Shown piece by piece: positions 167 to 22,245 of a stretch of 26,586 nt of DNA. The position numbers and the translations under genes are program-made. Within the stretch, counting starts at the first letter, position 1, and every line of letters begins with the position of its first letter. The stretch comes from a virus (lineage: Duplodnaviria; Caudoviricetes), in the IMG/VR virus record IMGVR_UViG_3300016476_000344, positions 1 to 26,586 of that record. One strand, 5' to 3'. A model generated the notes under the pieces. That model was not told the origin of the DNA and ran no database searches. It saw nothing but the letters and a program-made list of their open reading frames with translations.

Positions 167-1969
167 ATGGGTGGAAAAGGAAGCGCACCGGCCGCGCCCG
201 ACTATCTGGGCGCAGCACGCGAGCAGGCTGCTGCATCGGCCGAACTGACCAACATGCAGAACTACGCGAACCGCCCGACGATCAACACGCCGTTCGGTTC
301 CCAGTCTTGGCAAACCAACGCGTCTATCGACCCAGCAACAGGCCAACGTGTCACGTCTTGGACGCAGAGCAACACGCTCGCGCCAGGACTGCAGCAGGCC
401 CTCAACGACCAGATAAACATCCAGTCTGGCCGAAGCAACCTGGCCGGCTCGTTCATGGACCGGGTGGCAAGCGAGTATTCGCAGCCGTTCGATACGGCAA
501 GCCTGCCCCAGCGCACCGCGGCCAATGCGCCTGGCACGCTCAACGCTGGCGTGACTGACTACACACCTGGGCTGATCACCGATGTGAACTCGCGGGCCAA
601 TCAAGTTGTCGGTGGGTTCAATTTCTCCGGCCCTCAGATGGCAATGTCTCCAATGACATCGAGCCTGGCCACCGGCGTTCAGTCTCCCAGCTTGAACACC
701 GGGTTCAACGCCATGACCGGCGATCTCAGCCGACGTGTTGGCACTGAGGCTGTGCAGCGCGGTTTAAATGTCGGCGACAACCCGGCCCTTCCGCAGTTCG
801 ACAGCAGCTACCGGGACACCGTTGCCAACACGCTGATGCAGCGCATGCAGCCTGTCCACGACTACCAGCAGCGCCAGCTGGAAACTCGCTTGGCGAACCA
901 AGGTTTCACGACTGGCAGCGAGGGCTACAAGCGTGCGCTTGATGAACTCGGCCAGCGCCAGGCCAGCGAACGGTTCAATGCCCTGGACACGGCTGGAAAC
1001 GAGGCCCAGCGCCTGTACGGCATGCAGATGGGCTCTCGCCAGCAGGCGTTCAACGAAGATGTGACTGGCGGCCAGTTCTCCAATCAGGCCGCCAATCAGG
1101 CGTTCGGTCAGAACCTACAGGCCGCACAGTTTGGCAATCAGGCCACCAACCAGGCGTACAACCAGGCGATGGGCGCAACGCAGGCCGCCAACGCCGCGCT
1201 AGGTCAGCAGTTTGGTCAAAACCTGCAAGCCGGCCAGTTCCAAAATCAGGCCGCGAACCAGGCGTTCAACCAGACCCTGGGTGCTTTCAACTTTGGCAAT
1301 CAGGCCCAGCAGCAGGCATACAACCAGATGATGGGCCAGGCCAACCTTGCAAACCAGGCCGCAGGTCAGCAGTTCAATCAGGATCTGCAGGCGCGCCAGT
1401 TCAGCAACCAGGCGCTGGGCCAAGCCTCCGCGCTCGATCTGGCCGGCATGCAAGCACAGAACCAGGCCATCGCGCAGCAGTACGGTCTCAACCAGCAGTT
1501 CGCCGACGCGCAGAACCGTCTGCGACAGCAGGCGATTGCGGAGGAGATGCAGCGCCGCGGCATGTCGCTCAACGAGATGAACGCGCTGCTGTCTGGTCAG
1601 CAGGTCAGCATGCCGCAGATGCCGTCGTTCCAGGCCGCTGGCCGTGCCGAGACGCCTAACATCTTGGGCGCCACGCAGATGGGCTACGACGCCGCTCTGG
1701 GCGCCTACAACGCACAGCAGGCCGGCATGAACAGCCTGCTTGGGGCTGGCGCTCAACTGGGCTCGGCCGCGTTCATGTTCTCTGATCGCCGCCTGAAGTC
1801 CAACATCAAGCGGGTGGGCACGCACGCGATTGGCGTGGGCATTTACGAGTACACAATGATGGGAATGCCGCAACGCGGTGTGATTGCGCAAGAGGTGCAG
1901 GCAGTGCGTCCTGATCTGGTCAAGCGCCACGCAAACGGCTTCCTGATGGTCAATTACGGGGGTCTGTGA
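167..1969 (+). CDS. DNA ejection/pilot protein with Q/N-rich 18-aa repeats and C-terminal peptidase S74-like chaperone domain
   Basis: RBS AAGGAG; MGGKGSAPAAPDY N-terminus typical of podoviral ejection proteins; C-terminal SDRRLK...GVIAQEV...P...VNY motif from 1781. Confidence 0.75.
   Translation: MGGKGSAPAAPDYLGAAREQAAASAELTNMQNYANRPTINTPFGSQSWQTNASIDPATGQRVTSWTQSNTLAPGLQQALNDQINIQSGRSNLAGSFMDRVASEYSQPFDTASLPQRTAANAPGTLNAGVTDYTPGLITDVNSRANQVVGGFNFSGPQMAMSPMTSSLATGVQSPSLNTGFNAMTGDLSRRVGTEAVQRGLNVGDNPALPQFDSSYRDTVANTLMQRMQPVHDYQQRQLETRLANQGFTTGSEGYKRALDELGQRQASERFNALDTAGNEAQRLYGMQMGSRQQAFNEDVTGGQFSNQAANQAFGQNLQAAQFGNQATNQAYNQAMGATQAANAALGQQFGQNLQAGQFQNQAANQAFNQTLGAFNFGNQAQQQAYNQMMGQANLANQAAGQQFNQDLQARQFSNQALGQASALDLAGMQAQNQAIAQQYGLNQQFADAQNRLRQQAIAEEMQRRGMSLNEMNALLSGQQVSMPQMPSFQAAGRAETPNILGATQMGYDAALGAYNAQQAGMNSLLGAGAQLGSAAFMFSDRRLKSNIKRVGTHAIGVGIYEYTMMGMPQRGVIAQEVQAVRPDLVKRHANGFLMVNYGGL
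1070..1501 (+). repeat. About 8 tandem degenerate 18-aa (54-bp) repeats in the ejection protein
   Basis: GQFSNQAANQAFGQNLQA / AQFGNQATNQAYNQAMGA / TQAANAALGQQFGQNLQA / GQFQNQAANQAFNQTLGA / FNFGNQAQQQAYNQMMGQ / ANLANQAAGQQFNQDLQA ... Confidence 0.85.
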
Positions 1970-5376: not shown

Positions 5377-8300
5377 ATGCCACGCAACGGATCAGGCGTT
5401 TACACGCTGCCAGCAGGTAACCCGGTTGTGCCGGGTACCACCATTGATGCCGCCTGGGCCAACAGCACGCTGGAGGACATGGCCAACGAGATCACGAACT
5501 CGCTCTCGCGCACCGGTGCGGGCGGCATGATCGCGCCGTTCCGCATCGCGGACGGCAACATCACGGCACCTGGTCTGGCGTTCCTGAATGAGACGGGCAG
5601 CGGCCTGTATCGCAGCGGCACGGCCTCTGTCTGGATGGCAATCCAGGGCGTCAACACGGCGCAGTTCACGACCACTGGCGTCAACATCCCGGTGGGGAAA
5701 TCGCTGGGTGTTGCTGGAAGCCTATCAATCACCGGCAGCATGACGGCTACCGGCTCGGTGACGACCTCGGATCTGAACACGGACCATGTGGACTTCAACA
5801 CGGCAGGCGGCACTGATGCTGTCGCTCGCCTGATTTGGAACGACACCGACGGCACGCTCAACCTTGGCCTCAAGGGTGGCAACGTCGTGCTGCAGGTTGG
5901 GCAGGAAGAAGTGCTGCGCGCGCTGAATGCGACCGGCTCAACAATGACCAGCGGGCAAGTTGTTTACATCACCGGCGCATCTGGCCAGCGCCCGACCGTC
6001 GCGCTGGCTCAAGGCAACGCCGAGGCCACATCGACCAAAGTCATCGGCATCGTCACAGAGACAATTGCAAACAACGCACAGGGCTTTGTGACCACGGCCG
6101 GTCTGGTGCGCGGCGTCAACACGTCGGCTTTTGCTGAAGGCGCGGTTTTGTGGCTGTCTGCCAGCACCCCCGGCGCGATTACCTCGACGCGCCCGACGGC
6201 ACCAAACCACGCCGTGCTGGTTGGCTACTGCGTTCGCTCGCACGCCACGGACGGCATCATCTACGTGATGGTGCAGAACGGCTACGAGTTGGATGAGTTG
6301 CACGACGTGCTGATCACCAACGTGGCCAACAACAACATGCTGCGCTACAACTCCGCGGCCAGCGTGTGGGAAAACATCGCCGGCCCTGCTGGCGCTGTCG
6401 TTGGAACCACCGACTCGCAGACGCTGACCAACAAGACAATCAGCGGATCTGCCAACACCCTGAGCAACATCGGCAACGCGTCGCTGGTCAATTCTTCGCT
6501 GACGATTGGCTCGACATCCATCAGCCTGGGCGCGACAGCCACCACGCTTGCCGGGCTGACCAGCGTGACCGCGACGACGTTCAACGGCGCCCTGAATGGG
6601 AACGCCACAAACGTCACTGGCACGGTGGCCATCGCCAACGGCGGCACCGGCGCGACCACCGCCTCAAGCGCTCGCACGAACCTTGGCTTGGCGATTGGCA
6701 CCGACGTGCCATCCCCGACTGGCACTGGCGCGTCGGGCACTTGGGGCATCAGCATCACCGGCAACGCGGCCACGGTGACCAATGGCGTGGTGACCACAGG
6801 CAGCTACTCTGACCCGTCCTGGATCACGGCACTGGCCGGCAGCAAGATCACCGGCAACATCAGCGGCAACGCTGCAAACGTGACCGGCACTGTGGCTGTG
6901 GCCAACGGCGGTACTGGTGCCACGTCGGCTTCCGGCGCTCGAGTCAACCTGCTGCCCAGCTACACCAGCAACGAACTCAAAGCCCTGCGCGTCAATGCCG
7001 CAGGCACCGATGTGGAATGGTTCACGGTGTCGGCTGGTGGTGACGTGGCTGGCCCTGCGTCAGCAACTGACAACGCCCTGGTGCGGTTCGACGCCACGAC
7101 CGGCAAACTGATTCAAAACTCGGTTGGCATCCTGAGCGACACGGGTGATCTGTCTGGCATTGCTGCACTGTCGATGTCTGGCGCCCTGACCCTCTCCGGC
7201 GGCACAGCCAACGGCGTGGCCTACCTCAACGGCTCCAAAGTCCTGACCACGGGGAGTGCGCTGACGTTTACGGGAACTCGACTTGGTATTAACGATGCAT
7301 CCCCGGTAAGCGCATTGACTGTCAAGTCGGGTAACGGAGATCAAGCCACACTCAACAATGCTGGTGAACGCTTTACTCAATTTACCTTGCAGAACAACGG
7401 AACATCCAAGGGTGCGCTTTGGGTTGATAACACAAACAGTCTTTTGGAGTTGTATGGCTATTCTGGAATGTCGTTGACATTCTCTGCTAACGGCTCCGAA
7501 CAAATGCGCCTGACCTCCACAGGTCTTGGCATTGGGACGAGTTCGCCTTTTGCAAAACTGCAAGTGGTTGCGGCGAGTGCGGACTACTTCAATCCGCAGG
7601 TGATGATTGGAGAAGCGTCTAACTCCACTGGTAAGCAGCTTCATGTCGGTTACAACACAACCGCAAACACTGGGTACATCCAAGCAGTCCATAACGGCAC
7701 AGGCTACAAAGACCTTTTGCTGCAACCCAATGGAGGCAACCTCGGCCTCGGGGTGACGCCGGGGGCATGGACGACCTATCGGGTGATGGACATCGGTGGG
7801 GGTCAGTCTGTTTTTTCGTATCAAGACGCAGCGACCAACACTATTGGTTTTGCAGCCAACGCGCTCTGGAACGGATCGTGGGTGTATCGGCAATCCTCAG
7901 TTGGGGCATCCCGCTATGCATTGGTGAACAACGCACACCAGTGGTACACCGCCCCCTCCGGCACAGCAGGCAACGCCATCAGCTTTACGCAGGCGGCAAC
8001 ACTTACTGCGGCGGGTGATTTTTTGGTTGGCACTACAAGCACAACAAATAATTCCCGTTTTGCTTGCAACAACACAGCGGGAACTCGCAAGTGGGGTTTT
8101 GGAACTCAAGGCAGCAATACTCCGTTTTATGTTGTTGACGATACAACTGGCAGTGGTGTCCAGCTTACTGCTGGTGCTACTGCATGGAGTTCTTTTTCAG
8201 ACGAAAGAAACAAAACACAACTTAAACCTTTTGAAAATGCCATTGAAAAGGTTTGCACACTTAGATCTGGAACTGGTCGATATTTAACTGATAATGAATC

Positions 8301-8481
8301 TGTTAGTCGCTCTTTCTTGATTGCTCAAGATGTTCAAAAAGTTCTGCCAGAAGCTGTAAGTGTAAGCGAAGATGAGCAAGGCACACTCACTTTACGATAC
8401 ACGGATTTAATTCCATTGCTGGCGGCTGCAATTAAAGAACTTAAAGCAGAATTTGACGCATATAAGGCTGCACATCCATGA
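5377..8481 (+). CDS. Tail fibre protein with C-terminal intramolecular chaperone (peptidase S74-like)
   Basis: MPRNGSGVYTLPAGNPV head-binding-type N-terminus; G/T/A/S-rich fibre repeats (ANGGTGAT); SDERNK at 8197 ... IAQDVQKVLPEAV ... YTDLIPLLAAAIKEL. Confidence 0.9.
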   Translation: MPRNGSGVYTLPAGNPVVPGTTIDAAWANSTLEDMANEITNSLSRTGAGGMIAPFRIADGNITAPGLAFLNETGSGLYRSGTASVWMAIQGVNTAQFTTTGVNIPVGKSLGVAGSLSITGSMTATGSVTTSDLNTDHVDFNTAGGTDAVARLIWNDTDGTLNLGLKGGNVVLQVGQEEVLRALNATGSTMTSGQVVYITGASGQRPTVALAQGNAEATSTKVIGIVTETIANNAQGFVTTAGLVRGVNTSAFAEGAVLWLSASTPGAITSTRPTAPNHAVLVGYCVRSHATDGIIYVMVQNGYELDELHDVLITNVANNNMLRYNSAASVWENIAGPAGAVVGTTDSQTLTNKTISGSANTLSNIGNASLVNSSLTIGSTSISLGATATTLAGLTSVTATTFNGALNGNATNVTGTVAIANGGTGATTASSARTNLGLAIGTDVPSPTGTGASGTWGISITGNAATVTNGVVTTGSYSDPSWITALAGSKITGNISGNAANVTGTVAVANGGTGATSASGARVNLLPSYTSNELKALRVNAAGTDVEWFTVSAGGDVAGPASATDNALVRFDATTGKLIQNSVGILSDTGDLSGIAALSMSGALTLSGGTANGVAYLNGSKVLTTGSALTFTGTRLGINDASPVSALTVKSGNGDQATLNNAGERFTQFTLQNNGTSKGALWVDNTNSLLELYGYSGMSLTFSANGSEQMRLTSTGLGIGTSSPFAKLQVVAASADYFNPQVMIGEASNSTGKQLHVGYNTTANTGYIQAVHNGTGYKDLLLQPNGGNLGLGVTPGAWTTYRVMDIGGGQSVFSYQDAATNTIGFAANALWNGSWVYRQSSVGASRYALVNNAHQWYTAPSGTAGNAISFTQAATLTAAGDFLVGTTSTTNNSRFACNNTAGTRKWGFGTQGSNTPFYVVDDTTGSGVQLTAGATAWSSFSDERNKTQLKPFENAIEKVCTLRSGTGRYLTDNESVSRSFLIAQDVQKVLPEAVSVSEDEQGTLTLRYTDLIPLLAAAIKELKAEFDAYKAAHP
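6601..6942 (+). repeat. Duplicated tail fibre segment
   Basis: NATNVTGTVAIANGGTGATTASSAR (6601-6675) and NAANVTGTVAVANGGTGATSASGAR (6868-6942). Confidence 0.8.
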
Positions 8482-8960
8482 ACCAACAACTCGTAGCCGA
8501 GTGCTTTGAGCATTGTGACGGCAAACTGTACTGGAAGAAGGTCGCACACCCAAACAAGCAATACCTTGTCGGGCAAGAGGCTGGATCAATCCACCAAACA
8601 GGCTACCGTCATGTCACATGGCTTGGCAAAGTCCATAAGGCGCACCGACTGATCTTCATGCTGCATCACGGCTATTTGCCGCCAGAAGTTGACCACATCA
8701 ATGGCGACAGGCAAGACAACCGCATTGAGAATCTGAGGGCTGCGAACCGAAGCGAGAACCAATGCAACCGTCCTGCGCTTGCCAGCAATACATCAGGTTA
8801 CCCCGGTGTGTCGTGGCACAAGAAAAGCAAGGCGTGGTGCGTCCGTGTCATGAAGAATGGCAAAACCGTAGTCCAGCAGTATTTTAAAGACTTGGAACTT
8901 GCTGGTTTGTTCGCTGCTGAAGCGCGATCTCTTTACCACGGCGCTTACGCCAAAAACTGA
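8478..8960 (+). CDS. HNH (HNH_3-type) endonuclease with C-terminal AP2-like DNA-binding domain; putative homing endonuclease
   Basis: AHRLIF...VDHINGDRQDNRIENLR...N..N followed by NTSGYPGVSW.K..KAW. Confidence 0.88.
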   Translation: MNQQLVAECFEHCDGKLYWKKVAHPNKQYLVGQEAGSIHQTGYRHVTWLGKVHKAHRLIFMLHHGYLPPEVDHINGDRQDNRIENLRAANRSENQCNRPALASNTSGYPGVSWHKKSKAWCVRVMKNGKTVVQQYFKDLELAGLFAAEARSLYHGAYAKN

Positions 8961-10232: not shown

Positions 10233-10702
10233 TGTACACCCACGTGGCCGCTGCGCTCGTTTCTGGGGCCTTGGCGGCCTGGGGGGCGTGGCAGGTGCAG
10301 GCCTGGCGATACGACGCCCGGATCTCGGCCATGCAGGAGGCTCACGCGGTGAGCCTGCAGGCGGCCGAGCAGGCGGCCCGCGAACGCGAGCAGGCCCTCA
10401 ACCAGGCCAGGCAGAAAGCAGAGGAACGCTATGTGGAAGAAAAACGCCGGGCGACTGTGGCTGCCGGTCGCGCTCGCACTGAACTTGATGGGCTGCGCGA
10501 CACCCTCTACGCCCTCGGCGCCCCCGCAGCCGGCAAAGATCCCGCCGCCGTCTGTCGAACTGATGCAGGAGCCCTCGAGCGGCAGCTACTCGGACAGTGT
10601 GCAGCGGCTCTTGTTGGAGTGGCGGGAGAAGCTGACCGCCTGGCAGCGCAGGTCTTAGGCCTGCAGGGCTATGTGCGCGAGGTGTGTTTGGCGCCCAAAT
10701 GA
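10229..10702 (+). CDS. Rz: Inner-membrane spanin (Rz-like)
   Basis: Start at ATG 10229/10232 overlapping the endolysin stop; N-terminal TM helix then coiled coil; Cys near the C-terminus. Confidence 0.85.
   Translation: MMYTHVAAALVSGALAAWGAWQVQAWRYDARISAMQEAHAVSLQAAEQAAREREQALNQARQKAEERYVEEKRRATVAAGRARTELDGLRDTLYALGAPAAGKDPAAVCRTDAGALERQLLGQCAAALVGVAGEADRLAAQVLGLQGYVREVCLAPK
10431..10658 (+). CDS. Rz1: Outer-membrane lipoprotein spanin (Rz1-like), embedded in Rz
   Basis: Signal peptide with lipobox LMGC and a Pro-rich mature part; lies entirely inside Rz in another frame; GAGGA RBS. Confidence 0.82.
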   Translation: MWKKNAGRLWLPVALALNLMGCATPSTPSAPPQPAKIPPPSVELMQEPSSGSYSDSVQRLLLEWREKLTAWQRRS

Positions 10703-10703
10703 C

Positions 10704-10732
10704 TGTGCCAAAATTGTGCCGTGGCTTGTGCC
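10704..10732 (+). repeat. attP left arm-type integrase binding sites
   Basis: TGTGCC at 10704, 10715 and 10727; 10704-10725 matches 10889-10910 at 21/22 bases. Confidence 0.8.
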
Positions 10733-10756
10733 ACAGCAGATTGCCATTTGCACCTT

Positions 10757-10782
10757 GCGCCCGGAAATTCCGGGCGTTTTTT
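10757..10782 (+). terminator. Intrinsic terminator of the late/lysis transcript
   Basis: GCGCCCGG-AAATT-CCGGGCGT stem-loop followed by a T run. Confidence 0.85.
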
Positions 10783-10793
10783 CGTCTGGTCGC

Positions 10794-10838
10794 ACTGCAA
10801 ATCCGTGTACGCCGGTTCGATTCCGACCCCCGCCTCCA
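10794..10838 (+). other. attP core: 3' half of tRNA-Cys(GCA)
   Basis: ACTGCAAATCCGTGTACGCCGGTTCGATTCCGACCCCCGCCTCCA has the GCA anticodon loop, GGTTCGATTCC T-arm, T discriminator and CCA. The 5' half of the tRNA is absent. It lies about 340 bp from the integrase stop. Confidence 0.9.
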
Positions 10839-10844
10839 CTGATT

Positions 10845-11177
10845 TCATTCAAGAAATTCCCCGGCGTTCAACTTGATCCAGGCGACCTTGTGCCAAATTT
10901 GTGCCGTGGCGCAGTCAGGAGCCCCCAGGCGCCGCGCAAGGGCGTCCAGGGGCACTGACATCACCCGGCCGTCGAAATCGACTCTGGCGGCCATCCTGGC
11001 CCCTTGCTCCCACACTCCCAGCACGGTCCCGCGCCGGCCCACCGGCCAGGGCTTGCGTATGACCACCACCTGCACGCCAGGCCCGGCGATCAGGGCCTGA
11101 AGGTCTTCCAGGTCTTCGCGCAGGCGCGTGTGAACGGCCTGCGCGTGGGCCTCGATCTGCTTGAGGTGGTGGTTCAC
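10845..11177 (-). CDS. Hypothetical protein coupled to the integrase, possible SH3/KOW-like beta-barrel
   Basis: GTGA overlap with the int stop; PGVQVVV...GRRGTVLGV...RVDFDG beta pattern. Confidence 0.55.
   Translation of the reverse strand: MNHHLKQIEAHAQAVHTRLREDLEDLQALIAGPGVQVVVIRKPWPVGRRGTVLGVWEQGARMAARVDFDGRVMSVPLDALARRLGAPDCATAQIWHKVAWIKLNAGEFLE
10889..10910 (+). repeat. attP right arm-type integrase binding sites
   Basis: TGTGCCAAATTTGTGCCGTGGC, a direct repeat of 10704-10725. Confidence 0.8.
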
Positions 11178-12130
11178 AGCGTAACCTTTTCGGCCGCGGC
11201 GGCTAGGTGCTCAGGGGACAGGTGAGCATAGCGCTGCACCATCTGCGGCGAGTGCCAGCCGCCCAGTTCCTGCAGCACTGACAGAGGCGTGCCGGCCATC
11301 GCGTGCCAGCTGGCCCAAGTGTGGCGCAGGTCATGGAACCGCAGCCAGGGCACGCCAGCGCGCTTGCAGGCGTTCGTCCAAGTGGTTGGCGAGATCCTCT
11401 CGGGGAACTTGAACACCAGTCCCTCGCGGGGCTCGGGCATGGCGGCCAGCATCTCACGCGCTTGGGTGTTCAGGGGCACCAGGATGCGCTCGCCGGCCTT
11501 GGCCTCGTCTGCATGCACAATCACCATCCCGCGCTCGAGGTTCACGTTCTCCCAGCGCAGGCCGTGGACGTTCGATCTTCTCAACCCGGTGAGCAAAGCG
11601 AAACGGACAAGACACCGGTACTTTTCCGGCAGTGCGGCGATCAAATTGGTCGCCTGGTCTTGCGTCAAAAATGCGACACGGCGGCGCGGCTCGGCCTCGG
11701 TGCGCAGCACCGGCGCCTTGTCCAGCCAGTCCCACTCGCGCTCGCAGGCGCGCAGGATGGCCCGGACCAGTGCGCGGTAGCGGTTGCGGGTGGCCGGCTT
11801 CACGTCGGTGGGCAGGGCGCCCTCGAGCGTGTCGCGGTCCAGGTCGGCCAGCAGCTTGCCGCCCAGAGCGGCCTTAAGGAAGGTGATCTTGTCCTGGTCG
11901 TCCTTGATTGAGCGCTTGTGGCCGCGCTCGGTCAGCCAGCGCTTGGTGGCGTCGTCCCAGGACTTCTTGGGCTTTTCCTTGAGCACGCCCGTGCGCCACA
12001 GTTCAGCCTTGCGGATGTCGTGCAGTTCCTGGGCGTGCTCCTTGTCCTCGGTCTTCAAGGACTCGCGAATGCGCTTGCCCTTGATCATTACGTCCATCCA
12101 GTAGGTGTTGCCGCGCAGTTTGATTGCCAT
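11174..12130 (-). CDS. int: Tyrosine integrase
   Basis: TGLRRSN (R), HDLRH (HxxR), LGGWHSPQMVQRYAH (Y); GAGG RBS; adjacent to attP. Confidence 0.96.
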   Translation of the reverse strand: MAIKLRGNTYWMDVMIKGKRIRESLKTEDKEHAQELHDIRKAELWRTGVLKEKPKKSWDDATKRWLTERGHKRSIKDDQDKITFLKAALGGKLLADLDRDTLEGALPTDVKPATRNRYRALVRAILRACEREWDWLDKAPVLRTEAEPRRRVAFLTQDQATNLIAALPEKYRCLVRFALLTGLRRSNVHGLRWENVNLERGMVIVHADEAKAGERILVPLNTQAREMLAAMPEPREGLVFKFPERISPTTWTNACKRAGVPWLRFHDLRHTWASWHAMAGTPLSVLQELGGWHSPQMVQRYAHLSPEHLAAAAEKVTL

Positions 12131-13406: not shown

Positions 13407-13723
13407 GTGTTGCTCCTTGCTCTAATGGCTTCGGCAGCAAGACCTGTATCCATGTCGCCCTCCAGATACATGTCCGCACACACTTTTGCACAGGCTTCTC
13501 TTTCCTCCGCTTTCGCCTGAGCCAGAGCATCAGTCAAGATGTTGACCTGTCGCTCCATAGCTTCCATCTCGGCTGGCCAACTGTTGCGCTCGGCAGCAGC
13601 GACAAGGGAGGCGAAGCGTTCAAGAGTTTCTTCGCCAAACACCCAAGCAGTAGAGTTCCAATCCTCGCGTGGCGCTTGAACACACGCCTCCCGCGCCATG
13701 CGAATGATGTCTTCTCGATTCAT
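13403..13723 (-). CDS. Small hypothetical accessory protein (MNREDIIRMAREA...EREACAKVC...AIRAR)
   Basis: Start re-placed at 13723 (GGAGG RBS, ATGA overlap); a motif family frequent in proteobacterial phages. Confidence 0.72.
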   Translation of the reverse strand: MNREDIIRMAREACVQAPREDWNSTAWVFGEETLERFASLVAAAERNSWPAEMEAMERQVNILTDALAQAKAEEREACAKVCADMYLEGDMDTGLAAEAIRARSNT

Positions 13724-14226
13724 TTCATTCCTCCAAAAAGCCCCGCGAACGGGTTGGTGTGATCGCGCCAAATCTCCCCGCGCTTGATCAAGCTGACGGT
13801 GGACTGGCTGATGCCAAACCGCTGCGCGATCTCGGGCTGCGTGCCCTCTGCTTCGCGGATCTGCTGAGCGATTTCCATCGTCAAGCGTGACCGGGCGCGG
13901 GCCTTGTCTGCGATCTTTTTGACGCGGGCGGGGTTGGCTGCGTAGTTCAATTCCTTGGCAGACATGCTCTGCAGTCGCTTGCGCGTGATGACCATGATGT
14001 GGTCGGGATTCACGCACATGTAGTTGCGGCATTTGCAGGTGACAACTTTGCCGTCGCTGAGGTCAAGGCCCAGCTCCTGAGCGATGAACCTGCGCACCGG
14101 ATTGACGTGGCCCTTCCAGTTCATGGCCGGTGTGTTGCCGCTGGACTGATAGGAGCCAAACCACTCCCAGCAGTCGCCCACCTCGTTGGAGTGCTTGCGC
14201 AGGCGCTCAATCAGGACGGCCAGCAT
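13720..14226 (-). CDS. Degenerate HNH (His-Me finger) protein with C-terminal HTH
   Basis: CWEW.G ... TCKCRNYMCVNPDHI ... LT...AQQIR...TQPEIAQRFGISQSTVSLIKRG..W. Start at ATG 14226 (GGAG RBS) or GTG 14235. Confidence 0.75.
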   Translation of the reverse strand: MLAVLIERLRKHSNEVGDCWEWFGSYQSSGNTPAMNWKGHVNPVRRFIAQELGLDLSDGKVVTCKCRNYMCVNPDHIMVITRKRLQSMSAKELNYAANPARVKKIADKARARSRLTMEIAQQIREAEGTQPEIAQRFGISQSTVSLIKRGEIWRDHTNPFAGLFGGMK

Positions 14227-14329
14227 CGTCTTCACTCCGCGCAGACATCACGCACAGTGAGACTGCCAACACACTGACGAACGCGCCGGCGAGGGCGCCC
14301 AACAGGAACCACACGGCCTCGCTCAACAT
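14207..14329 (-). CDS. Small membrane peptide (40 aa)
   Basis: MLSEAVWFLLGALAGAFVSVLAVSLCVMSARSEDD...; fills the gap between neighbours with overlaps. Confidence 0.55.
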   Translation of the reverse strand: MLSEAVWFLLGALAGAFVSVLAVSLCVMSARSEDDAGRPD

Positions 14330-16895: not shown

Positions 16896-17645
16896 TCAGG
16901 CGTTGTGGGATGCAGTCAGTGCTGCGGAGAATGCCTCCCAGTCGAGGGGCATGTTCTTCAAGCCAAACCGATTGCCGCCCATGTGGGCAGGATGCGGCTC
17001 GACGTGAAGAATTCGTTTGCCCGTGGTGCGGGCCTTGGTTTCGGTCTTGCCGTAACCACCGTCCGACTCGGTGGTGACGATCTGGTAGTTGGCCCAGCCG
17101 ATCACGTCGGCCCACTCCTGCACCAAGGCAGTGGCGCGGTCGTGCAGCTTGATGGTGTAGGTGTCGTACCCGTCATGCAGCGGCGACTCGAAGTGCTTGA
17201 CCTTGTCGTGCGCGATCAAGATCACCGCCATGTTCTTCTGTTGGCGCAGGGCCTCAAAGCCTTGCAGCAGGTTGCGCCACTCCTCGGCCGCTGCCACGTA
17301 GCCCTTGCCGTAGCCGGGCTTCTCGATGTTGTCCCATTTGTTGGCCGCGCACACATGGGCATGCACCAGCGGCTCGAGCCAGTCCAGAGAGTCGAGGAAC
17401 ACCGTCTGGAAGTCGTGGTCCTGCGTCAGCAGCGTCTCGATGGCGCCGTACACGTCGTCCAGCGTCTTGGCGAGCGGAAAGGCGTTCGCGTCAACCGCGT
17501 CGGCTCCGTCCTCGGTCAGGATGCCCACCGCGTTGGGGGCAGAAGCGGCGAAGGTGGTCTTGCCGACCTTGCCAGGGCCGCACACCACGATCTTGGGTGC
17601 GCGGATGCGCTTGGTGCGCGAGATAGATGAGAGATCAAAAGCCAT
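16896..17645 (-). CDS. sak4: Sak4-like AAA_24 ATPase (single-strand annealing recombinase)
   Basis: GPGKVGKTT Walker A, VFLDSLDWLE, GYGKGY, ILIAH, EWADVIG; AAGGA RBS. Confidence 0.88.
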   Translation of the reverse strand: MAFDLSSISRTKRIRAPKIVVCGPGKVGKTTFAASAPNAVGILTEDGADAVDANAFPLAKTLDDVYGAIETLLTQDHDFQTVFLDSLDWLEPLVHAHVCAANKWDNIEKPGYGKGYVAAAEEWRNLLQGFEALRQQKNMAVILIAHDKVKHFESPLHDGYDTYTIKLHDRATALVQEWADVIGWANYQIVTTESDGGYGKTETKARTTGKRILHVEPHPAHMGGNRFGLKNMPLDWEAFSAALTASHNA

Positions 17646-17675
17646 TTTGTGTTCCTTGGTGGTGGGCTGTCGTGG

Positions 17676-17692
17676 GTTGTGAAATTCGCATC
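17676..17692. promoter_or_regulatory. 17-bp operator upstream of sak4
   Basis: GTTGTG-AAATT-CGCATC in the intergenic gap. Confidence 0.6.
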
Positions 17693-17873
17693 AGTCTTCT
17701 GGTGACTTGTTTGCGCGGTCGGGCACATGTCGCAAGATCAGGTCGTCCTTGACCTGCTCAACTGTGGTGAATCGGTGTTCGTTGGCACACTCATAGCGCC
17801 TGGTCTTGGCCCCGTCCTTGCGGGTGCGCGTTTCGAGGACTTCCGTCCACGCGCCGCAGCGAGGGCACTTCAT
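17691..17873 (-). CDS. Zinc-ribbon protein (NrdR N-terminal/Ogr-like), putative regulator
   Basis: MKCPRCG..TEVLETR...RRYECANEHRFTTVE; ATGA overlap at 17870-17873. Confidence 0.75.
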   Translation of the reverse strand: MKCPRCGAWTEVLETRTRKDGAKTRRYECANEHRFTTVEQVKDDLILRHVPDRANKSPED

Positions 17874-18064
17874 GCGCTGGCCAGCCTCTTGACTGCTTCG
17901 TGCCAGATCTTGCGATCCGGGTCGAACTTCTTTTGCGCGGCCATCAGCTCGCCAAGCCTTTGCTGCCCACGCGACCAGACGCTGTAGTCGTCGCTCTTGT
18001 CGTAGTACCAGTCGAAGCATTCGAGGGCCTTTTTGTATTCGTCGGGGTCGGTGATGTCACTCAT
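17870..18064 (-). CDS. Small hypothetical protein (DWYYDKSDD..VW.RG motif)
   Basis: Start re-placed at 18064 (GAGGG RBS, ATGA overlap). Confidence 0.7.
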   Translation of the reverse strand: MSDITDPDEYKKALECFDWYYDKSDDYSVWSRGQQRLGELMAAQKKFDPDRKIWHEAVKRLASA

Positions 18065-18345
18065 GCCGCCCTCTCTTTCAACATGGCGTCGGCCATTTGA
18101 TAGGCGCCCATAGCCAGACATGCGGCTTGGCTATCCACATATTCTTGATTGTCTTCATAGTGAAGTGCATCCGCTGTTTCCGGTCCCCACTTTCCAGATT
18201 GGATGATTGCTGCCATAGCCTTGGCTGCAAAGTAGTCGCGCAGGGTCATGCCGCGCATGAAACCTTGATGCAGAACCTGGCCTGCAGGCGCGACGATTTG
18301 GGTGTTTTGCGGAAACGCTGGCCCGCCTGTGTTGGTGTTGCTCAT
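18061..18345 (-). CDS. Conserved phage protein (GGPAFP...GMTLRDYFAAKAM...AY.MADAML family)
   Basis: Recognisable motif family; start 18345 with GGAG RBS. Confidence 0.78.
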   Translation of the reverse strand: MSNTNTGGPAFPQNTQIVAPAGQVLHQGFMRGMTLRDYFAAKAMAAIIQSGKWGPETADALHYEDNQEYVDSQAACLAMGAYQMADAMLKERAA

Positions 18346-18346
18346 G

Positions 18347-18529
18347 TCAGCTGCTCCACCAGGCGACCAACAGACCAGCCAGCACCACGCCGATGACCAC
18401 GGCCAGGCCCACGTCGGCGTAACGCTCCCACGGGTGGACGCGGTAGCCCATCGACTTGCTGCTGATGTAGCCGGGGGTGAAATGGCACTCATTGAGAGTG
18501 CGAGGGGTTTGGAGGTGAGAGGGTTTCAT
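18347..18529 (-). CDS. First early-left gene, small protein with C-terminal TM helix
   Basis: AAGGA RBS; MKPSHLQTPRTLNEC.F...GLAVVIGVVLAGLLVAWWSS. Confidence 0.68.
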   Translation of the reverse strand: MKPSHLQTPRTLNECHFTPGYISSKSMGYRVHPWERYADVGLAVVIGVVLAGLLVAWWSS

Positions 18530-18568
18530 GGTTCGGGTTCCTTGGTTGGCACAGCGAGTTGCTGTAGG

Positions 18569-18602
18569 AGTGATTCTCGCGCAACATTGCGAAAACACCA
18601 AC
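18569..18602 (-). promoter_or_regulatory. Early-left promoter (PL-like) with two tandem operators
   Basis: Minus strand TTGGTG(18601-18596)-N17-GAGAAT(18578-18573); operators AGTGAT-TCTCG-CGCAAC (18569-18585) and ATTGCG-AAAAC-ACCAAC (18586-18602). Confidence 0.65.
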
Positions 18603-18610
18603 ACCCGAAA

Positions 18611-18639
18611 CAATGACCCACCGTTTCAGTGGGTTATTG
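18611..18639. terminator. Stem-loop just downstream of the repressor remnant, probable terminator
   Basis: CAATGACCCAC-CGTTTCA-GTGGGTTATTG (11-bp stem, one non-Watson-Crick pair). Confidence 0.55.
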
Positions 18640-18647
18640 AGAAAAAC

Positions 18648-18819
18648 TCAGAGGGGTTTGATCCAGAGAACAGGCGAGGCCCAAGCCACCAATGCATCGG
18701 TGCGCAGTGACTCGCCGTTAGGGCGCAGCAGGTTGAACGTGCCTGATCGATAGCCGCGATTGACAAAGCCCACCAAGTGCTCGCCCGTGTAATAGTTGAC
18801 AAAACCACTCGGTATTCAT
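18648..18819 (-). pseudogene. Internally deleted CI-like repressor (N-terminal 10 codons fused out of frame to an S24-like C-terminus)
   Basis: GAGG RBS + ATG 18819 gives MNTEWFCQLL. From 18788, in another frame: TGEHLVGFVNRGYRSGTFNLLRPNGESLRTDALVAWASPVLWIKPL-TGA(18648). Position is the canonical cI slot, divergent from cro. Confidence 0.7.
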
Positions 18820-18830
18820 TGAAGCCTCTT

Positions 18831-18880
18831 TTGGTGAGGTTTCCACATTGCCATACACTCCACGATGAGTCAAACGCAAC
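18831..18880 (+). promoter_or_regulatory. Early-right promoter (PR-like) with two operators
   Basis: TTGGTG(18831-18836)-N17-TACACT(18854-18859); operators GGTGAG-GTTTC-CACATT (18833-18849) and GATGAG-TCAAA-CGCAAC (18864-18880). Confidence 0.68.
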
Positions 18881-18897
18881 CCATAAGGATTTTCAAC

Positions 18898-19140
18898 ATG
18901 TCCATCCCCGTGATTCATACCCTCGACCCCGCCTACACAGTCATTGAAAAGCTCGGTGGCAAGGGCGAAGTCTGCGAGGCCCTTGGCCTCGACAAGTCCA
19001 CGCTCTCGCGCTGGTGCCAACCTGTGCCCAAGGGCACAGGCGGCGTCATTCCGCAGAGGTACTGGCCGCAGCTGATCGAGATGGCCCGCGTCAAGCGCGT
19101 GCGCATCAGCCTCAAGGAGTTGGCCGCCGTCGAGGTGTGA
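18898..19140 (+). CDS. Cro-like HTH regulator
   Basis: VIEKLGGKGEVCEALGLDKSTLSRW...GTGGVIPQRYWPQLI; AAGGA RBS favours ATG 18898 over 18865. Confidence 0.82.
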   Translation: MSIPVIHTLDPAYTVIEKLGGKGEVCEALGLDKSTLSRWCQPVPKGTGGVIPQRYWPQLIEMARVKRVRISLKELAAVEV

Positions 19141-19163
19141 TCGTGGTTGTAGGAGCCCCAACC

Positions 19164-21287
19164 ATGACCAACTCTGACTTCCTTGCAGAGGTCTATGGCG
19201 ACCTCGAGCCAGGCACCTACGGGTGGGTGTGCAGTTTCCGCGCAGATCCGTCGAACGCGCCCGCACTGGTGTGGGCAGGCCGACCCTACAAGGGTCTGCC
19301 AGCACAGGCAGCCACCATCGACAAATCCCACGACGACAACACCTACTTTTGCACTTCAGTCCTGACGCCCACCGACGACGGCGAGACAGCCAGGCGCAAG
19401 GACGCGTTCGTTCGGCTTGCCGTGCTGGTGCTTGACGATGTGCAGCTGTCAGACGTGCAGGGGTACAGCTACGCGATCCAAACCAGCCCCGGCAAATTCC
19501 AGATCGGTATCTTCCTCGATGGGGACGATGCGGATACCCGAAATAGGCCGCTCGTTGACCGGGTAATGAGCGCTTTGGCCGCGCGGGGGCGAAGCAACGA
19601 CGCCTCGGGTAATGCGTGCGTGCGCTACGTGCGCCTGCCCGTTGGCACCAACACCAAGCCGCGCCCGGCCGGCGAGTGGCAAGTGAAGCTGGAAGCCTGG
19701 CAGCCGAACGTGCGCTGGTCCCTGGACGACGCCTGCGCGGCCGTGGGCATCGACCTCGACGGCCTCAAGGCAGCGACCACCGTCGCGACTCGCACATCTT
19801 CAGCAACATCAGGCACGGGTGTGCACGCTGGCGAGATGGTCATGGGCATCACCGACCCGAACCCATCCAACCGCGCCTACCACGACAGCATCACCCGCCT
19901 GGCCGCGTCCCTGATTGCCGGCGGCATGTTCCCTGGCGCCGCGGTCGAGTTTCTGTACAGCCTGATGGACGAGTCACGGCCGGGCGACCAGGCCGAACTG
20001 GCCCGCTGGCAGGCGCGCCGGGCCGAGATCCCGCGGGCGGTCAAGTCGGCCGAGAAGTTCGCGCCCGAGGAGCGCCAGCCGCCCAAGATCACCGTGAACC
20101 TGAACCTGGGTGGCTCACAGGATGAGCCTGAGCCCGAGGCCGTGCCCGGCGACCTGGTGCCAATGGACTGGGGCCGGCTGCACAGCACACAGCCCGAGCC
20201 CACGCAGTGGCGCCTGGAGGGCTGGCTGCCCGAGGGTACCGTTACCCTGCTGGCCGCCAACGGTGGCGTGGGCAAGTCCAACGTCAGCCTGCAGCTGGGC
20301 GTGGCATTGGCTCATGGCGTGAGCCTGTTCGACCTGCCTACCAAGCCCAGCCGCGTGCTGGTCCTGTCGGGCGAGGACGAGGCCCGCACCGTCCACTTTC
20401 GCGTCGCCAACATCTGCGCCGACATGGGTGTCGAAATGTCGTCACTTGCCGGGCGCATGGACGTGTACGACCTCACGCAGCAGGACTGCGTGCTGTGGAA
20501 GGATGGCCTGCCGACCGAGCGCATGCAGTGGCTGGCCGATGTCACCGTGGCGACAAAGGCCGACGTGGTGATCATCGACAACGCGTCCGACGTGTTCGCC
20601 GACAACGAGAACGACCGCACCGCAGTGCGCGGGTTCATGCGCGCCCTGAACCTGATCGCAGGCGTCACCCGTGCGGCCGTGCTGCTGCTGGCCCACGTGG
20701 ACAAGGCGTCCGCACGCGGCGGGGCAGGGTTGGACACCAACACCACGTTCAGCGGGTCCACGGCCTGGAACAACTCAGCGCGCAGCCGCTGGGCGATGGT
20801 GCGCGATGGCCAGTCGGTGCTGATGCGTCATGAGAAGTGCAACCTGGGCCCGCTGCAGGAGGAGATCCGCATCGAGTTCGACCCAGGCTCCAAGACGTTC
20901 AAGCGGTTCGGCGCCTCGCCAGGCCTGGCTGCCGCGTCTGCGCTGATGCGAAACACCCAACGCGCTGCGATTCTCAAACTGATCGAGCGCGCCTGCGCGG
21001 CCGGGGCCAACCTGTCGCTCAAGCCCAGCGCCACCAACAACGTGTTCGTGGCCCTGCGCGACGACCCGGAGTTCCCGAGCGGCCTGGACCGGCGCGAGTT
21101 CTTCCAGATCCTGCGCGACCTCGAGAACGAGCGCCTGGTGGCCGCACAGACGTACATGCGCAGCAACCGCACGCCAGGCCAGCGCATTGTGCTGACCGAC
21201 GCAGGCCGCGCCCGCGTGGCCGTGGGATCAGGTGCCGCACCCACATGGTCGCAGCGTGAGCAATACCAAGGAGAAAACGATGAGTGA
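19164..21287 (+). CDS. Primase-helicase fusion: RepB-like AEP primase + RepA/AAA_25 SF4-type helicase
   Basis: AGGAG RBS, ATG 19164; LVLDDV, IQTSPGKFQ, RYVRLP.GTN (primase); ANGGVGKS, SGED, IIDN, LLAHVDK, SGSTAW (helicase). Confidence 0.87.
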   Translation: MTNSDFLAEVYGDLEPGTYGWVCSFRADPSNAPALVWAGRPYKGLPAQAATIDKSHDDNTYFCTSVLTPTDDGETARRKDAFVRLAVLVLDDVQLSDVQGYSYAIQTSPGKFQIGIFLDGDDADTRNRPLVDRVMSALAARGRSNDASGNACVRYVRLPVGTNTKPRPAGEWQVKLEAWQPNVRWSLDDACAAVGIDLDGLKAATTVATRTSSATSGTGVHAGEMVMGITDPNPSNRAYHDSITRLAASLIAGGMFPGAAVEFLYSLMDESRPGDQAELARWQARRAEIPRAVKSAEKFAPEERQPPKITVNLNLGGSQDEPEPEAVPGDLVPMDWGRLHSTQPEPTQWRLEGWLPEGTVTLLAANGGVGKSNVSLQLGVALAHGVSLFDLPTKPSRVLVLSGEDEARTVHFRVANICADMGVEMSSLAGRMDVYDLTQQDCVLWKDGLPTERMQWLADVTVATKADVVIIDNASDVFADNENDRTAVRGFMRALNLIAGVTRAAVLLLAHVDKASARGGAGLDTNTTFSGSTAWNNSARSRWAMVRDGQSVLMRHEKCNLGPLQEEIRIEFDPGSKTFKRFGASPGLAAASALMRNTQRAAILKLIERACAAGANLSLKPSATNNVFVALRDDPEFPSGLDRREFFQILRDLENERLVAAQTYMRSNRTPGQRIVLTDAGRARVAVGSGAAPTWSQREQYQGENDE

Positions 21288-21887: not shown

Positions 21888-22054
21888 AGTATTCGTTCGG
21901 CTGGCTGACCAACAAACGCGGGCAGGTTGTCGTGCAGATCACCGAGCACCTGCATGAGGGCTGGTTTGATGACCTGTACGCGGCCAAGTTTGCGGCCGCG
22001 CAGTTCTTTGGCGAGCGGCCGGTGCTGTTTCAGATCAGGAGGGCGGCGAGATGA
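21884..22054 (+). CDS. Small hypothetical protein (56 aa, not in ORF track)
   Basis: MKYSFGWLTNKRGQVVVQITEHLHEGWFDDLYAAKFAAAQFFGERPVLFQIRRAAR; ATGA overlaps at both ends. Confidence 0.6.
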   Translation: MKYSFGWLTNKRGQVVVQITEHLHEGWFDDLYAAKFAAAQFFGERPVLFQIRRAAR

Positions 22055-22245
22055 GCGCGTTAGCAGACAGCAGGAAGACCTGCCCGCCCTGTCATGGGGA
22101 CTGCAATCAGGGGCGGAATTGCCCGGCGAGGCGGGGCTTGCACACGGTGCTCACGCCTTGCACACGCATGCATGTGCAGCCTGCGTGCAGGTGTGTGCAA
22201 ACCCCCCTCAAAGGGGGTTGCACACCTGCACATGCACACGCATAG
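22051..22245 (+). CDS. Small protein with CPPC..DCNQGR.CP motif, 3' part runs through the origin repeats
   Basis: AGGAGG RBS, ATGA overlap; the C-terminal half looks like read-through into repeats. Confidence 0.45.
   Translation: MSALADSRKTCPPCHGDCNQGRNCPARRGLHTVLTPCTRMHVQPACRCVQTPLKGGCTPAHAHA

What the first reader, a model, noticed from the sequence alone, without database searches (positions are those of the whole stretch)
18648..18819. The CI-like repressor gene has lost its middle: possible natural virulent derivative of a temperate phage
Seen: the cI slot between the two divergent promoters holds only 172 bp. An RBS+ATG gives MNTEWFCQLL (18819-18790). One base later, in another frame, come 46 codons ending ...RGYRSGTFNL...WASPVLWIKPL-stop, then a terminator-like hairpin. 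Recalled: that C-terminus resembles the last strands of S24/LexA-like domains of phage repressors, and M.T.WF..LL resembles the start of their HTH domains. Inference: a deletion of several hundred bp removed the HTH and most of the peptidase domain while int, attP and operators stayed intact, so this genome could not maintain lysogeny alone but could still be repressed by a homoimmune prophage. TTTGTCAA occurs on both sides of the junction, 36 bp apart. A +1 shift at TTT-T would give a 56-aa C-terminal-only peptide, possibly dominant-negative (speculative).
Basis: partly seen in the sequence, partly recalled or inferred. Interest (0 to 1): 0.82.

Follow-up and report, generated by a model that had tools for sequence, protein, structure and literature searches.

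The report
Widespread phage lineage lost its repressor
A freshwater bacteriophage found in many separate samples has lost the middle 410 bases of its repressor gene while keeping its integration genes, so it likely can no longer go dormant on its own, and the leftover tail of the gene is unexpectedly well preserved, which may mean it still does something.

Summary
Confirmed. The slot opposite cro holds codons 1-10 and the last 46 codons of a 193-aa repressor, out of frame; 410 bp are missing. 76 of 80 relatives found through cro carry the whole gene and the other 4 are cut by contig ends. The intact protein folds as an HTH plus a lambda-CI/LexA-type domain. It is no assembly collapse: contigs bridge the junction without a gap in 8 of 8 runs laid, 2018-2025. 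Integrase and a tRNA-Cys attP are kept. This works like mycobacteriophage D29, a known kind. New: the deletion is the only allele seen for this phage in all runs laid, and 14 of 15 variants in the remnant are synonymous in the repressor frame, while a 370-bp block around the junction and cro is invariant. Most likely one deletion swept through a recombining population and picked up old synonymous alleles from intact phages (0.55). The rival is a short C-terminal peptide made by +1 frameshift at UUU-U and kept by selection (0.25). Lifestyle, host, expression and immunity are untested; 26% of the genome is missing.

The parts
18790..18819 (-). cI stub: codons 1-10 of the repressor, with lineage-specific Arg7>Cys (C>T at 18801)
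   Evidence: 29/30 nt equal to 7 close intact alleles; residue after WF is R/K in 172 of 174 intact proteins, never C; these 10 codons are nearly invariant in DNA among 15 close relatives
18789..18790 (-). deletion junction; 410 bp (codons 11-147) missing relative to 193-aa alleles, frameshifting
   Evidence: bridged with 31 or more bases on both sides and no gap in X1, X2, X3, X5, X6, X8, X13, X15
18648..18788 (-). cI remnant: last 46 codons plus TGA, the last four strands of the C-terminal domain
   Evidence: HMM of the family hits it at E 1.4e-16; keeps 9 of 9 invariant and 6 of 6 nearly invariant columns; strands 151-158, 165-168, 174-179, 181-191 in the model of the intact protein
18648..18815 (-). 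open +1 frame of 55 codons that runs from inside the stub into the remnant
   Evidence: in 13 of the 15 closest intact alleles this frame stops after 4 codons at the codon 10/11 border
18801..18804 (-). UUU-U at codons 6/7, candidate +1 shift site (untested)
   Evidence: sequence; UUU_Ynn described as +1-prone in bacteria (PMC5009743, passage seen); intact alleles have UUU_C or UUC here, so the site type is not new
18718..18819 (-). zero-frame product, 33 aa, junk after residue 10
   Evidence: 11 of 13 tested variants change it and one removes its stop
18616..18634 (-). terminator-like hairpin after cI
18845..18873 (-). candidate cI promoter (TTGACT, 17 nt, TGn-CAATGT), read by eye; Shine-Dalgarno AGAGG at 18829-18825
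   Evidence: collinear and conserved in relatives; 8 of 12 consensus matches, below the scan's threshold; SD duplex -5.8 kcal/mol
18857..18870 (.). operator-like palindrome ACTC-N6-GAGT between cI and cro
   Evidence: present at the same offset in 11 of 11 relatives scanned, window 13/14 to an ad hoc consensus; function inferred
18579..18592 (.). left operator-like site, more drifted than in relatives
   Evidence: 10/14 against 11-13/14 in 11 relatives; the consensus was drawn from those relatives, so the comparison leans against the window
18898..19140 (+). cro-like gene, 80 aa, intact
   Evidence: PHROG 409 E 8e-5, Pfam P22_Cro E 8e-4, below the curated cut-off; this exact protein on 16 contigs
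18748..19114 (.). block without listed variants among deletion-bearing contigs (junction, stub, intergenic region, most of cro)
   Evidence: 18748-18853 in 8 runs, cro part in 4 runs; about 64 synonymous sites
11174..12130 (-). tyrosine integrase, 318 aa, intact
   Evidence: PHROG 1 E 3.5e-66; 76-93% identical to those of 4 of 4 intact-cI relatives, no stops; motifs LRRS, HDLRH, GWHS, RYAH
10791..10838 (+). attP core candidate: 3' half of a tRNA-Cys(GCA)
   Evidence: same core beside the integrase in 4 of 4 relatives; 46-nt pattern matches the tRNA-Cys of 2 of 401 genomes of the order of a Piscinibacter MAG with 1 mismatch

Best explanation
A single 410-bp frameshifting deletion destroyed the CI-type repressor gene of this integrase-bearing freshwater phage, which likely makes it unable to keep a prophage silent and so obligately lytic, and the broken allele likely swept through a recombining population. 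Shown: the deletion, its presence in all runs laid, the shared Arg7>Cys change, the intact integrase, attP and cro. Inferred: the intact protein is the immunity repressor; without HTH no repression of the early promoters is possible, so each infection of a non-immune cell ends in lysis; Cro and its sites stay because lytic growth needs them; integrase and attP stay because the loss is young. Inferred: the remnant is not needed, and its synonymous variants are old alleles brought in by crossovers with intact phages in the 40-90 bp next to the junction (the genome encodes a Sak4-like annealing protein).
For: Deletion in 8 of 8 runs laid from 8 coded studies, 7 without the possible source. One origin: same junction and same C>T at 18801 in all; 0 of 174 intact proteins have Cys there. 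Young block: no listed variant on about 64 synonymous sites from 18748 to 19114, where the rate just left of it (13 places on 28 sites) predicts about 30; divergent second alleles resume at about 19095-19127 in X1, X3, X5. The variants come as shared patches: one nine-change haplotype recurs in X3, X5, X8 and X13. Gene flow with intact phages: the 60-aa neighbour allele of X2 and X3 is protein P0242, whose longest contig (7657 bases) has the same length as those of intact repressor P0002 and Cro P0139; integrase P0162 (313/318 identical) shares the length 10473 with intact repressor P0169 (linkage inferred from equal lengths only). An intact L001-type allele co-occurs in X6 (loose end at 18790, equal to L001 bases 31-60). 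The only amino-acid change seen, Thr>Pro at 18701 in X6, is a residue found in 0 of 80 intact alleles, as relaxed selection would allow. The remnant lacks six of ten strands of the domain. Precedent: D29 (PMC5712189, sections 6 and 12).
Against: No intact donor with the remnant's peptide was found: best 36 of 46 identical among 183 proteins, best 78% in DNA among 194 loci, no loose end at 18789 in the four runs with complete tables. The model needs at least two crossovers within about 45 bp of the junction. 14 of 15 synonymous (P about 8e-7 if neutral) is also what selection on a peptide gives. No prophage of the family was found (1 weak hit in genome contigs; 0 of 22 and 0 of 11 genomes of two candidate host genera), so that the intact family is temperate is inferred. 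Bcep22-like phages with a 37% identical repressor give mixed results: JC1 forms lysogens, Bcep22, BcepIL02 and DC1 did not in the strains tried (PMC9144972, passages). 26% of the genome is not held.
Confidence: 0.55

Rival explanations
1. The deletion is old and the remnant is a working mini-gene: ribosomes starting at the kept cI start slip +1 at UUU-U (codons 6/7), or start at TTG/GTG 18776/18773, and make a 41-56-aa piece of the C-terminal domain that purifying selection preserves, likely as a partner that spoils oligomers of a related prophage's repressor. The phage is still lytic.
For: 14 of 15 listed variants synonymous in exactly this frame, against 2 of 13 and 1 of 13 in the other two frames; in X2, X6, X8, X13 and X15 they lie on the same contig as the junction. 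No stop or indel listed in any haplotype; all 15 conserved columns kept. Start codon and SD kept. The junction falls on the very base that would complete the +1-frame stop found in 13 of the 15 closest intact alleles (seen after the fact). UUU_Ynn is +1-prone in bacteria (PMC5009743 passage). No same-peptide intact donor found.
Against: Needs a second event to explain the invariant block over cro. The 13 codons nearest the junction show no variant where about 4.7 are expected (P 0.009), which hitch-hiking explains directly. One Thr>Pro change exists. Internal starts have weak SD (-3.1 and -3.5 against -4.2 to -6.0 kcal/mol for 7 other starts). No stimulatory RNA structure (z 0.15). No gene call of this size in the protein collection. 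The piece alone models as three short strands with an unstructured tail.
Confidence: 0.25
2. Repressor borrowing: the phage still integrates and is kept silent by the repressor of a co-resident relative, which selects for keeping integrase, attP and operators.
For: HTH is almost unchanged across close relatives and the palindrome next to cro is kept; intact relatives co-occur in X6 and probably in X2 and X8 (low-depth contigs with the relatives' bases at 18820-18823); integrase dN/dS to relatives 0.17-0.34.
Against: A young deletion keeps these parts anyway, as D29 does; the integrase divergence predates the deletion; the left operator-like site has drifted; no prophage found.
Confidence: 0.12
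3. The lost gene was not needed for dormancy: another repressor lies in the unseen part of the genome, or this family does not form lysogens at all.
For: Record is 74% complete; no prophage found; three Bcep22-like phages gave no stable lysogens (PMC9144972).
Against: In the complete relative G003 the stretch missing here holds head, tail and portal genes; 0 of 14 proteins scanned matched an HTH repressor family, one matched a 'starvation-inducible regulator' family. The other HTH-bearing gene of the window (13720-14235, HNH + HTH) is also present in G003 beside an intact cI. Layout and fold are those of a cI/cro switch.
Confidence: 0.07
4. Assembly artefact.
For: Only contigs, no raw reads, could be laid.
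Against: The same junction in separately assembled contigs of 8 runs, on at least five different flanking haplotypes; no repeat at the two ends that could collapse.
Confidence: 0.01

Closest known systems
Mycobacteriophage D29, natural lytic deletion derivative of an L5/StarStuff-like temperate parent (PMC5712189 sections 6 and 12; PMC6550527 passages)
   Same: Natural isolate with an incomplete repressor gene that has lost its 5' part, kept operator sites, and close temperate relatives; D29 forms clear plaques, no lysogens, and is blocked by StarStuff and L5 lysogens. That D29 keeps integrase and attP is recalled, not read here.
   Different: D29 is one isolate whose deletion also removes neighbouring genes; here the loss is confined to cI, leaves both ends, and is the only allele seen for this phage in 8 runs over 2018-2025 on several recombinant backgrounds. 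Unrelated repressor family and host. No phenotype is measured here.
cI-like regulators of Bcep22-like podoviruses (BcepMigl, BcepIL02, DC1, CSP3), Ralstonia phage RpY1, Erwinia phages Pavtok and PEp14
   Same: Full-length homologues of the intact protein, 35-38% identical over 96-99% in the 20 rows listed of 42 records; JC1, whose repressor is 59.9% identical to BcepMigl's, forms lysogens (PMC9144972).
   Different: Those are 43-63-kb phages with whole repressor genes; the relatives here are 35-37 kb and uncultured.
Lambda CI, LexA and coliphage 186 CI
   Same: Predicted fold of the intact relative: HTH (1-67) plus C-terminal domain matching lambda CI fragment 2ho0 (Z 10.2, rmsd 3.2, 115 residues), LexA (Z 10.0, rmsd 3.0, 110) and 186 CI CTD 2fkd (Z 9.6, rmsd 3.0, 103); top Foldseek hits lambda and 186 repressors.
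   Different: 11-16% identity; no conserved Lys in strand 151-158 and Ala-Gly in residues 71-100 of only 9 of 43 rows, so likely not self-cleaving, as recalled for 186 CI.

Membership tests
CI/LexA-fold phage repressor (intact allele of relatives) | N-terminal HTH domain | tested here: met
   Pfam HTH_3 23.1 and 23.5 bits, cut-off 23; helices 3-63 in the model. Deleted in the window.
CI/LexA-fold phage repressor (intact allele of relatives) | C-terminal LexA/lambda-CI (S24-type) fold | tested here: met
   no Pfam S24 hit by sequence. The window keeps residues 148-193 only.
CI/LexA-fold phage repressor (intact allele of relatives) | divergent to a cro-like gene, between the two early operons, in an integrase-bearing genome | tested here: met
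   76 of 80 cro loci, 4 cut by contig ends; integrase in 4 of 4 records searched
Self-cleaving S24 repressors (lambda CI, LexA) | conserved Ser-Lys dyad and Ala-Gly cleavage site | tested here: not met
   no Lys among the listed residues of columns 151-156, Ser118 in 27 of 43, Ala-Gly in 9 of 43 rows; the positions expected were mapped by eye from recalled LexA motifs
CI/LexA-fold phage repressor (intact allele of relatives) | binds operators and maintains lysogeny | not testable with these tools
   no prophage found; JC1 with a distant homologue forms lysogens (PMC9144972)
D29-type natural lytic derivative of a temperate phage | repressor gene broken in the natural population, not in one assembly | tested here: met
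   8 of 8 runs laid
D29-type natural lytic derivative of a temperate phage | rest of the lysogeny apparatus still present | tested here: met
   integrase, attP core, cro, right operator-like site
D29-type natural lytic derivative of a temperate phage | no other repressor in the genome | tested here: inconclusive
   none of this family in the 74% held; missing part is structural in G003
D29-type natural lytic derivative of a temperate phage | temperate parent identified | tested here: inconclusive
D29-type natural lytic derivative of a temperate phage | clear plaques, no lysogens, still blocked by a homoimmune lysogen | not testable with these tools
   needs an isolate and host
Programmed +1 ribosomal frameshift gene | shift-prone site with an open, conserved +1 frame | tested here: met
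   UUU-U at 18804-18801, frame open to 18648, unchanged in 8 runs, variants 14 of 15 synonymous
Programmed +1 ribosomal frameshift gene | stimulator (adjacent stop, internal SD, RNA structure) | tested here: inconclusive
   no adjacent stop; folding of 18840-18740 no better than shuffles (z 0.15); other stimulators not tested
Programmed +1 ribosomal frameshift gene | trans-frame product detected | not testable with these tools
   no RNA run on record among the holders

The most novel reading that the evidence does not exclude
A formerly temperate phage has turned its repressor gene into an anti-repressor: the deletion fused the +1 frame of the first codons to the last four strands of the oligomerisation domain, and a +1 frameshift at UUU-U makes a 56-aa peptide that selection preserves because it poisons the repressors of related prophages and lets this lineage grow on immune hosts across fresh waters.
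Probability: 0.15. Interest if true: 0.82.

Novelty: new member of a known kind. Interest (0 to 1): 0.5.

Why it matters
Repressor-less derivatives of temperate phages are known from single isolates such as D29 and are often thought of as short-lived or laboratory-favoured (own knowledge). Here one such allele is the only form seen of a phage in freshwater, wastewater and other aquatic samples over seven years, with the pattern of a local sweep in a recombining population. It gives a natural, datable case of a temperate-to-lytic switch that can be followed in public data, and a warning that integrase plus attP would label this phage temperate. If the remnant is translated, it would show a direct route from repressor to anti-repressor.

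Tried and rejected
Family searches with the 46- or 55-aa piece alone gave nothing in PHROGs or Pfam; only neighbours' full genes identified it. No short protein of 30-97 aa like it is on record and the zero-frame stretch is not in the collection. Exact DNA patterns for the junction and for the window's own cro start both gave 0 in viral contigs; since the window itself is such a record, same-species records are withheld, and the lack of an intact same-species allele there shows nothing. A degenerate pattern for the 12 residues after the junction found 1 contig each in viral contigs and metagenome contigs, both intact alleles. No DNA match in cultured phages. Prophage searches: 1 weak hit in a Piscinibacter MAG, 0 of 22 and 0 of 11 genomes. 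Complex prediction of the remnant with the C-terminal domain of L002 gave no answer (score 0.02, mark 0.32); it is no evidence either way. Rfam and ARAGORN found nothing in the window. The idea that C>T at 18801 makes a new rightward promoter (TTGACA at 18796-18801) was dropped: no -10 box at 16-18 nt. The idea that it creates the slippery site was dropped: 35 of 71 distinct intact alleles already have UUU followed by C. The TTTGTCAA repeat as deletion microhomology was rejected because both copies remain. A two-step origin (in-frame deletion at a short CCACG repeat, then a 2-base loss) fits relatives' sequences by eye but no intermediate was seen. The sequence search of the PDB was dominated by designed repeat proteins. 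Earlier findings of the scan: none. Literature searches listed no paper on this phage or on a selected C-terminal-only repressor remnant; only listings were seen for most, and the library lacks most subscription journals.

Full report
Setting. The window is a whole 26,586-base virus record, linear, 74% complete by CheckV. It runs from tail and lysis genes through a tyrosine integrase, a leftward early operon (resolvase, Cas4-domain exonuclease, SSB, Sak4-like annealing protein), the slot in question, a cro-like gene and primase/helicase to terminase and a portal-like gene. Three relatives taken whole, 25-36 kb, align at 77-80% DNA identity over 10.8-13.3 kb.

Observation. The zero frame goes on to 33 aa. 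The frame of the C-terminal piece is open from 18815.

What it is. Searching with Cro gave 92 relatives, of which the best 80 were kept. In 76 the slot holds a whole gene of 185-200 aa; in 4 the contig ends first. The closest begin with 29 of the same 30 bases as the window and end like the remnant; they are 582-585 bp, so the window lacks 410 bp, codons 11-147, and the join is out of frame. A model of L002's protein (pLDDT 89.7, 43 rows) has an HTH domain and a ten-strand C-terminal domain; its best Foldseek matches are lambda repressor, a lambda-186 hybrid, 186 repressor and LexA, and the C-terminal domain aligns to lambda CI 2ho0 at Z 10.2, rmsd 3.2 over 115 residues and to the 186 CI domain at Z 9.6, rmsd 3.0 over 103. 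The family has no conserved lysine in strand 151-158 and no conserved Ala-Gly, so it is likely not self-cleaving. Cultured homologues are the cI-like regulators of BcepMigl, BcepIL02, DC1 and RpY1, 35-38% identical in the 20 rows listed of 42. The window keeps the last four strands only.

It is real and widespread. 20 of 24 listed runs hold part of 17500-20000. I laid 8, each from a different coded study, 2018-2025, freshwater, wastewater and aquatic metagenomes; all are assembled contigs, not reads. In 8 of 8 a contig crosses 18789/18790 without a gap and with at least 42 bases on each side. X1 may be the window's source; X5 and X8 share a longest record of 17,885 bases and may not be independent, which leaves at least six independent studies. 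Contigs show presence, not absence, and drop rare alleles. In the four runs whose tables were complete no contig left the stretch at 18789, as an intact allele with the same C-terminus would; X6 holds an intact L001-type relative that leaves it at 18790.

What else is kept. The integrase is whole, with its motifs, and 76-93% identical to those of 4 of 4 relatives. Beside it lies the 3' half of a tRNA-Cys, as in 4 of 4 relatives; it matches the tRNA-Cys of 2 of 401 genomes drawn from the order of a Piscinibacter MAG with one mismatch, which points to a Burkholderiales host (inference; only that order was searched). The 78-bp cI-cro spacer is 68-70/78 identical to four close relatives and 51/78 to a fifth, and keeps an ACTC-N6-GAGT palindrome; the left operator-like site scores lower than in 11 relatives (ad hoc consensus). 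No second member of the repressor family is in the record, and the part missing here is head, tail and portal genes in the complete relative G003.

The unexpected part. The tables list 15 distinct variants at 14 places within the 46 codons. Thirteen are all synonymous in the repressor frame, against 2 and 1 of 13 in the other frames; of the two added, read by hand, 18669 is synonymous (Val) and 18701 is Thr>Pro. One further difference each in X5, X8 and X15 is counted but not listed. In X2, X6, X8, X13 and X15 the variants are on the contig that bears the junction; in X3 and X5 they are on contigs that overlap it. If neutral, 14 of 15 has P about 8e-7. Yet from 18748 to about 19114 no variant is listed on deletion-bearing contigs (18748-18853 in 8 runs, cro in 4), over about 64 synonymous sites where the neighbouring rate predicts 30. 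All carry the same Arg7>Cys change, found in 0 of 174 intact proteins.

How it most likely works. Shown: one junction, one shared point change, a uniform block around them, mosaic flanks. Inferred: a single deletion removed the DNA-binding domain, so the early promoters cannot be held off and infection ends in lysis; the allele spread while recombination exchanged the flanks with intact phages, importing old synonymous alleles up to 42 bases from the junction. The weak point is that no intact allele with the remnant's peptide was found (best 36 of 46 among 183 proteins), though viral contigs withholds same-species records. I put this reading at 0.55.

Rivals. A translated mini-gene (0.25): start codon and SD are kept, UUU-U at codons 6/7 is a type of site described as +1-prone in bacteria (PMC5009743, passage), and the junction falls on the base that would complete the +1-frame stop present in 13 of the 15 closest intact alleles (seen after the fact). 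Against it: the invariant block needs a second explanation, internal starts have weak SD, no stimulatory fold, one Thr>Pro change, and the piece is a fragment of a barrel. Repressor borrowing from co-resident relatives (0.12), a repressor elsewhere or a non-temperate family (0.07) and artefact (0.01) are set out in their sections.

Comparison with what is known. It works like D29, which has an incomplete repressor gene, forms clear plaques and no lysogens, and is blocked by StarStuff and L5 lysogens (PMC5712189: abstract, outline, sections 6 and 12 read); several such natural lytic derivatives exist in Cluster A (PMC6550527: passages). Membership is met on the genomic features and untestable on the phenotypic ones. 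For the repressor family, JC1 lysogenises while Bcep22, BcepIL02 and DC1 did not in the strains tried (PMC9144972: passages). No supplements were read; they could hold further cases. The literature searches named under Tried and rejected listed no report of this phage or of a selected C-terminal-only remnant.

Verdict. A real, widespread repressor deletion: a new member of a known kind, with population evidence that single isolates do not give and an open question about the remnant. Interest 0.5; 0.82 if the remnant proves to be a frameshift-made anti-repressor (probability 0.15).

Noticed in passing
window 18790-18819 and L001-L015: The first ten codons of cI are nearly invariant in DNA among 15 close relatives, rare codons included; the deletion leaves exactly this stretch, which may hold an overlapping operator or translation signal.
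   Followed up: partly
window 18788-18801: The junction and the C>T change together make a more symmetric 14-mer (TGT-N8-ACA) that scores 10/14 to the ad hoc operator consensus; a possible new Cro site, untested.
   Followed up: no
alignment A1, residues 91-145: The family's C-terminal domain lacks the cleavage dyad but keeps invariant or nearly invariant Thr94-His95-Asp96, Asp103-Cys104-Pro105 and Cys142: perhaps a ligand, metal or redox site that replaces self-cleavage. The last 46 residues diverge much faster than HTH and Cro among close relatives.
   Followed up: no
window 18046-18347: Many joints and loose ends in the runs laid: a hot spot of small-gene exchange just downstream of the left promoter.
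   Followed up: no
window 10689-10790: Inverted repeats and repeated TTGTGCC-like words on both sides of the attP core, likely integrase arm sites; a 110-aa ORF (10845-11177, minus) follows the integrase with no confident family match.
   Followed up: no
window 167-1969 and 5377-8481: Two separate genes end in an S74 chaperone domain, one a Gln/Asn-rich 600-aa protein, the other the 1034-aa tail fibre; an HNH-AP2 gene (8478-8960) follows the fibre.
   Followed up: no
window 22051-22245: A long imperfect hairpin of alternating (TG)/(CA) runs in a small ORF between the late early genes and the small terminase region (weak Rfam match only).
   Followed up: no
L123 and L135 (one 71,149-base contig): One IMG/VR contig carries two members of this repressor family, 82% and 72% identical to L002's: two phages joined or tandem prophages.
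   Followed up: no
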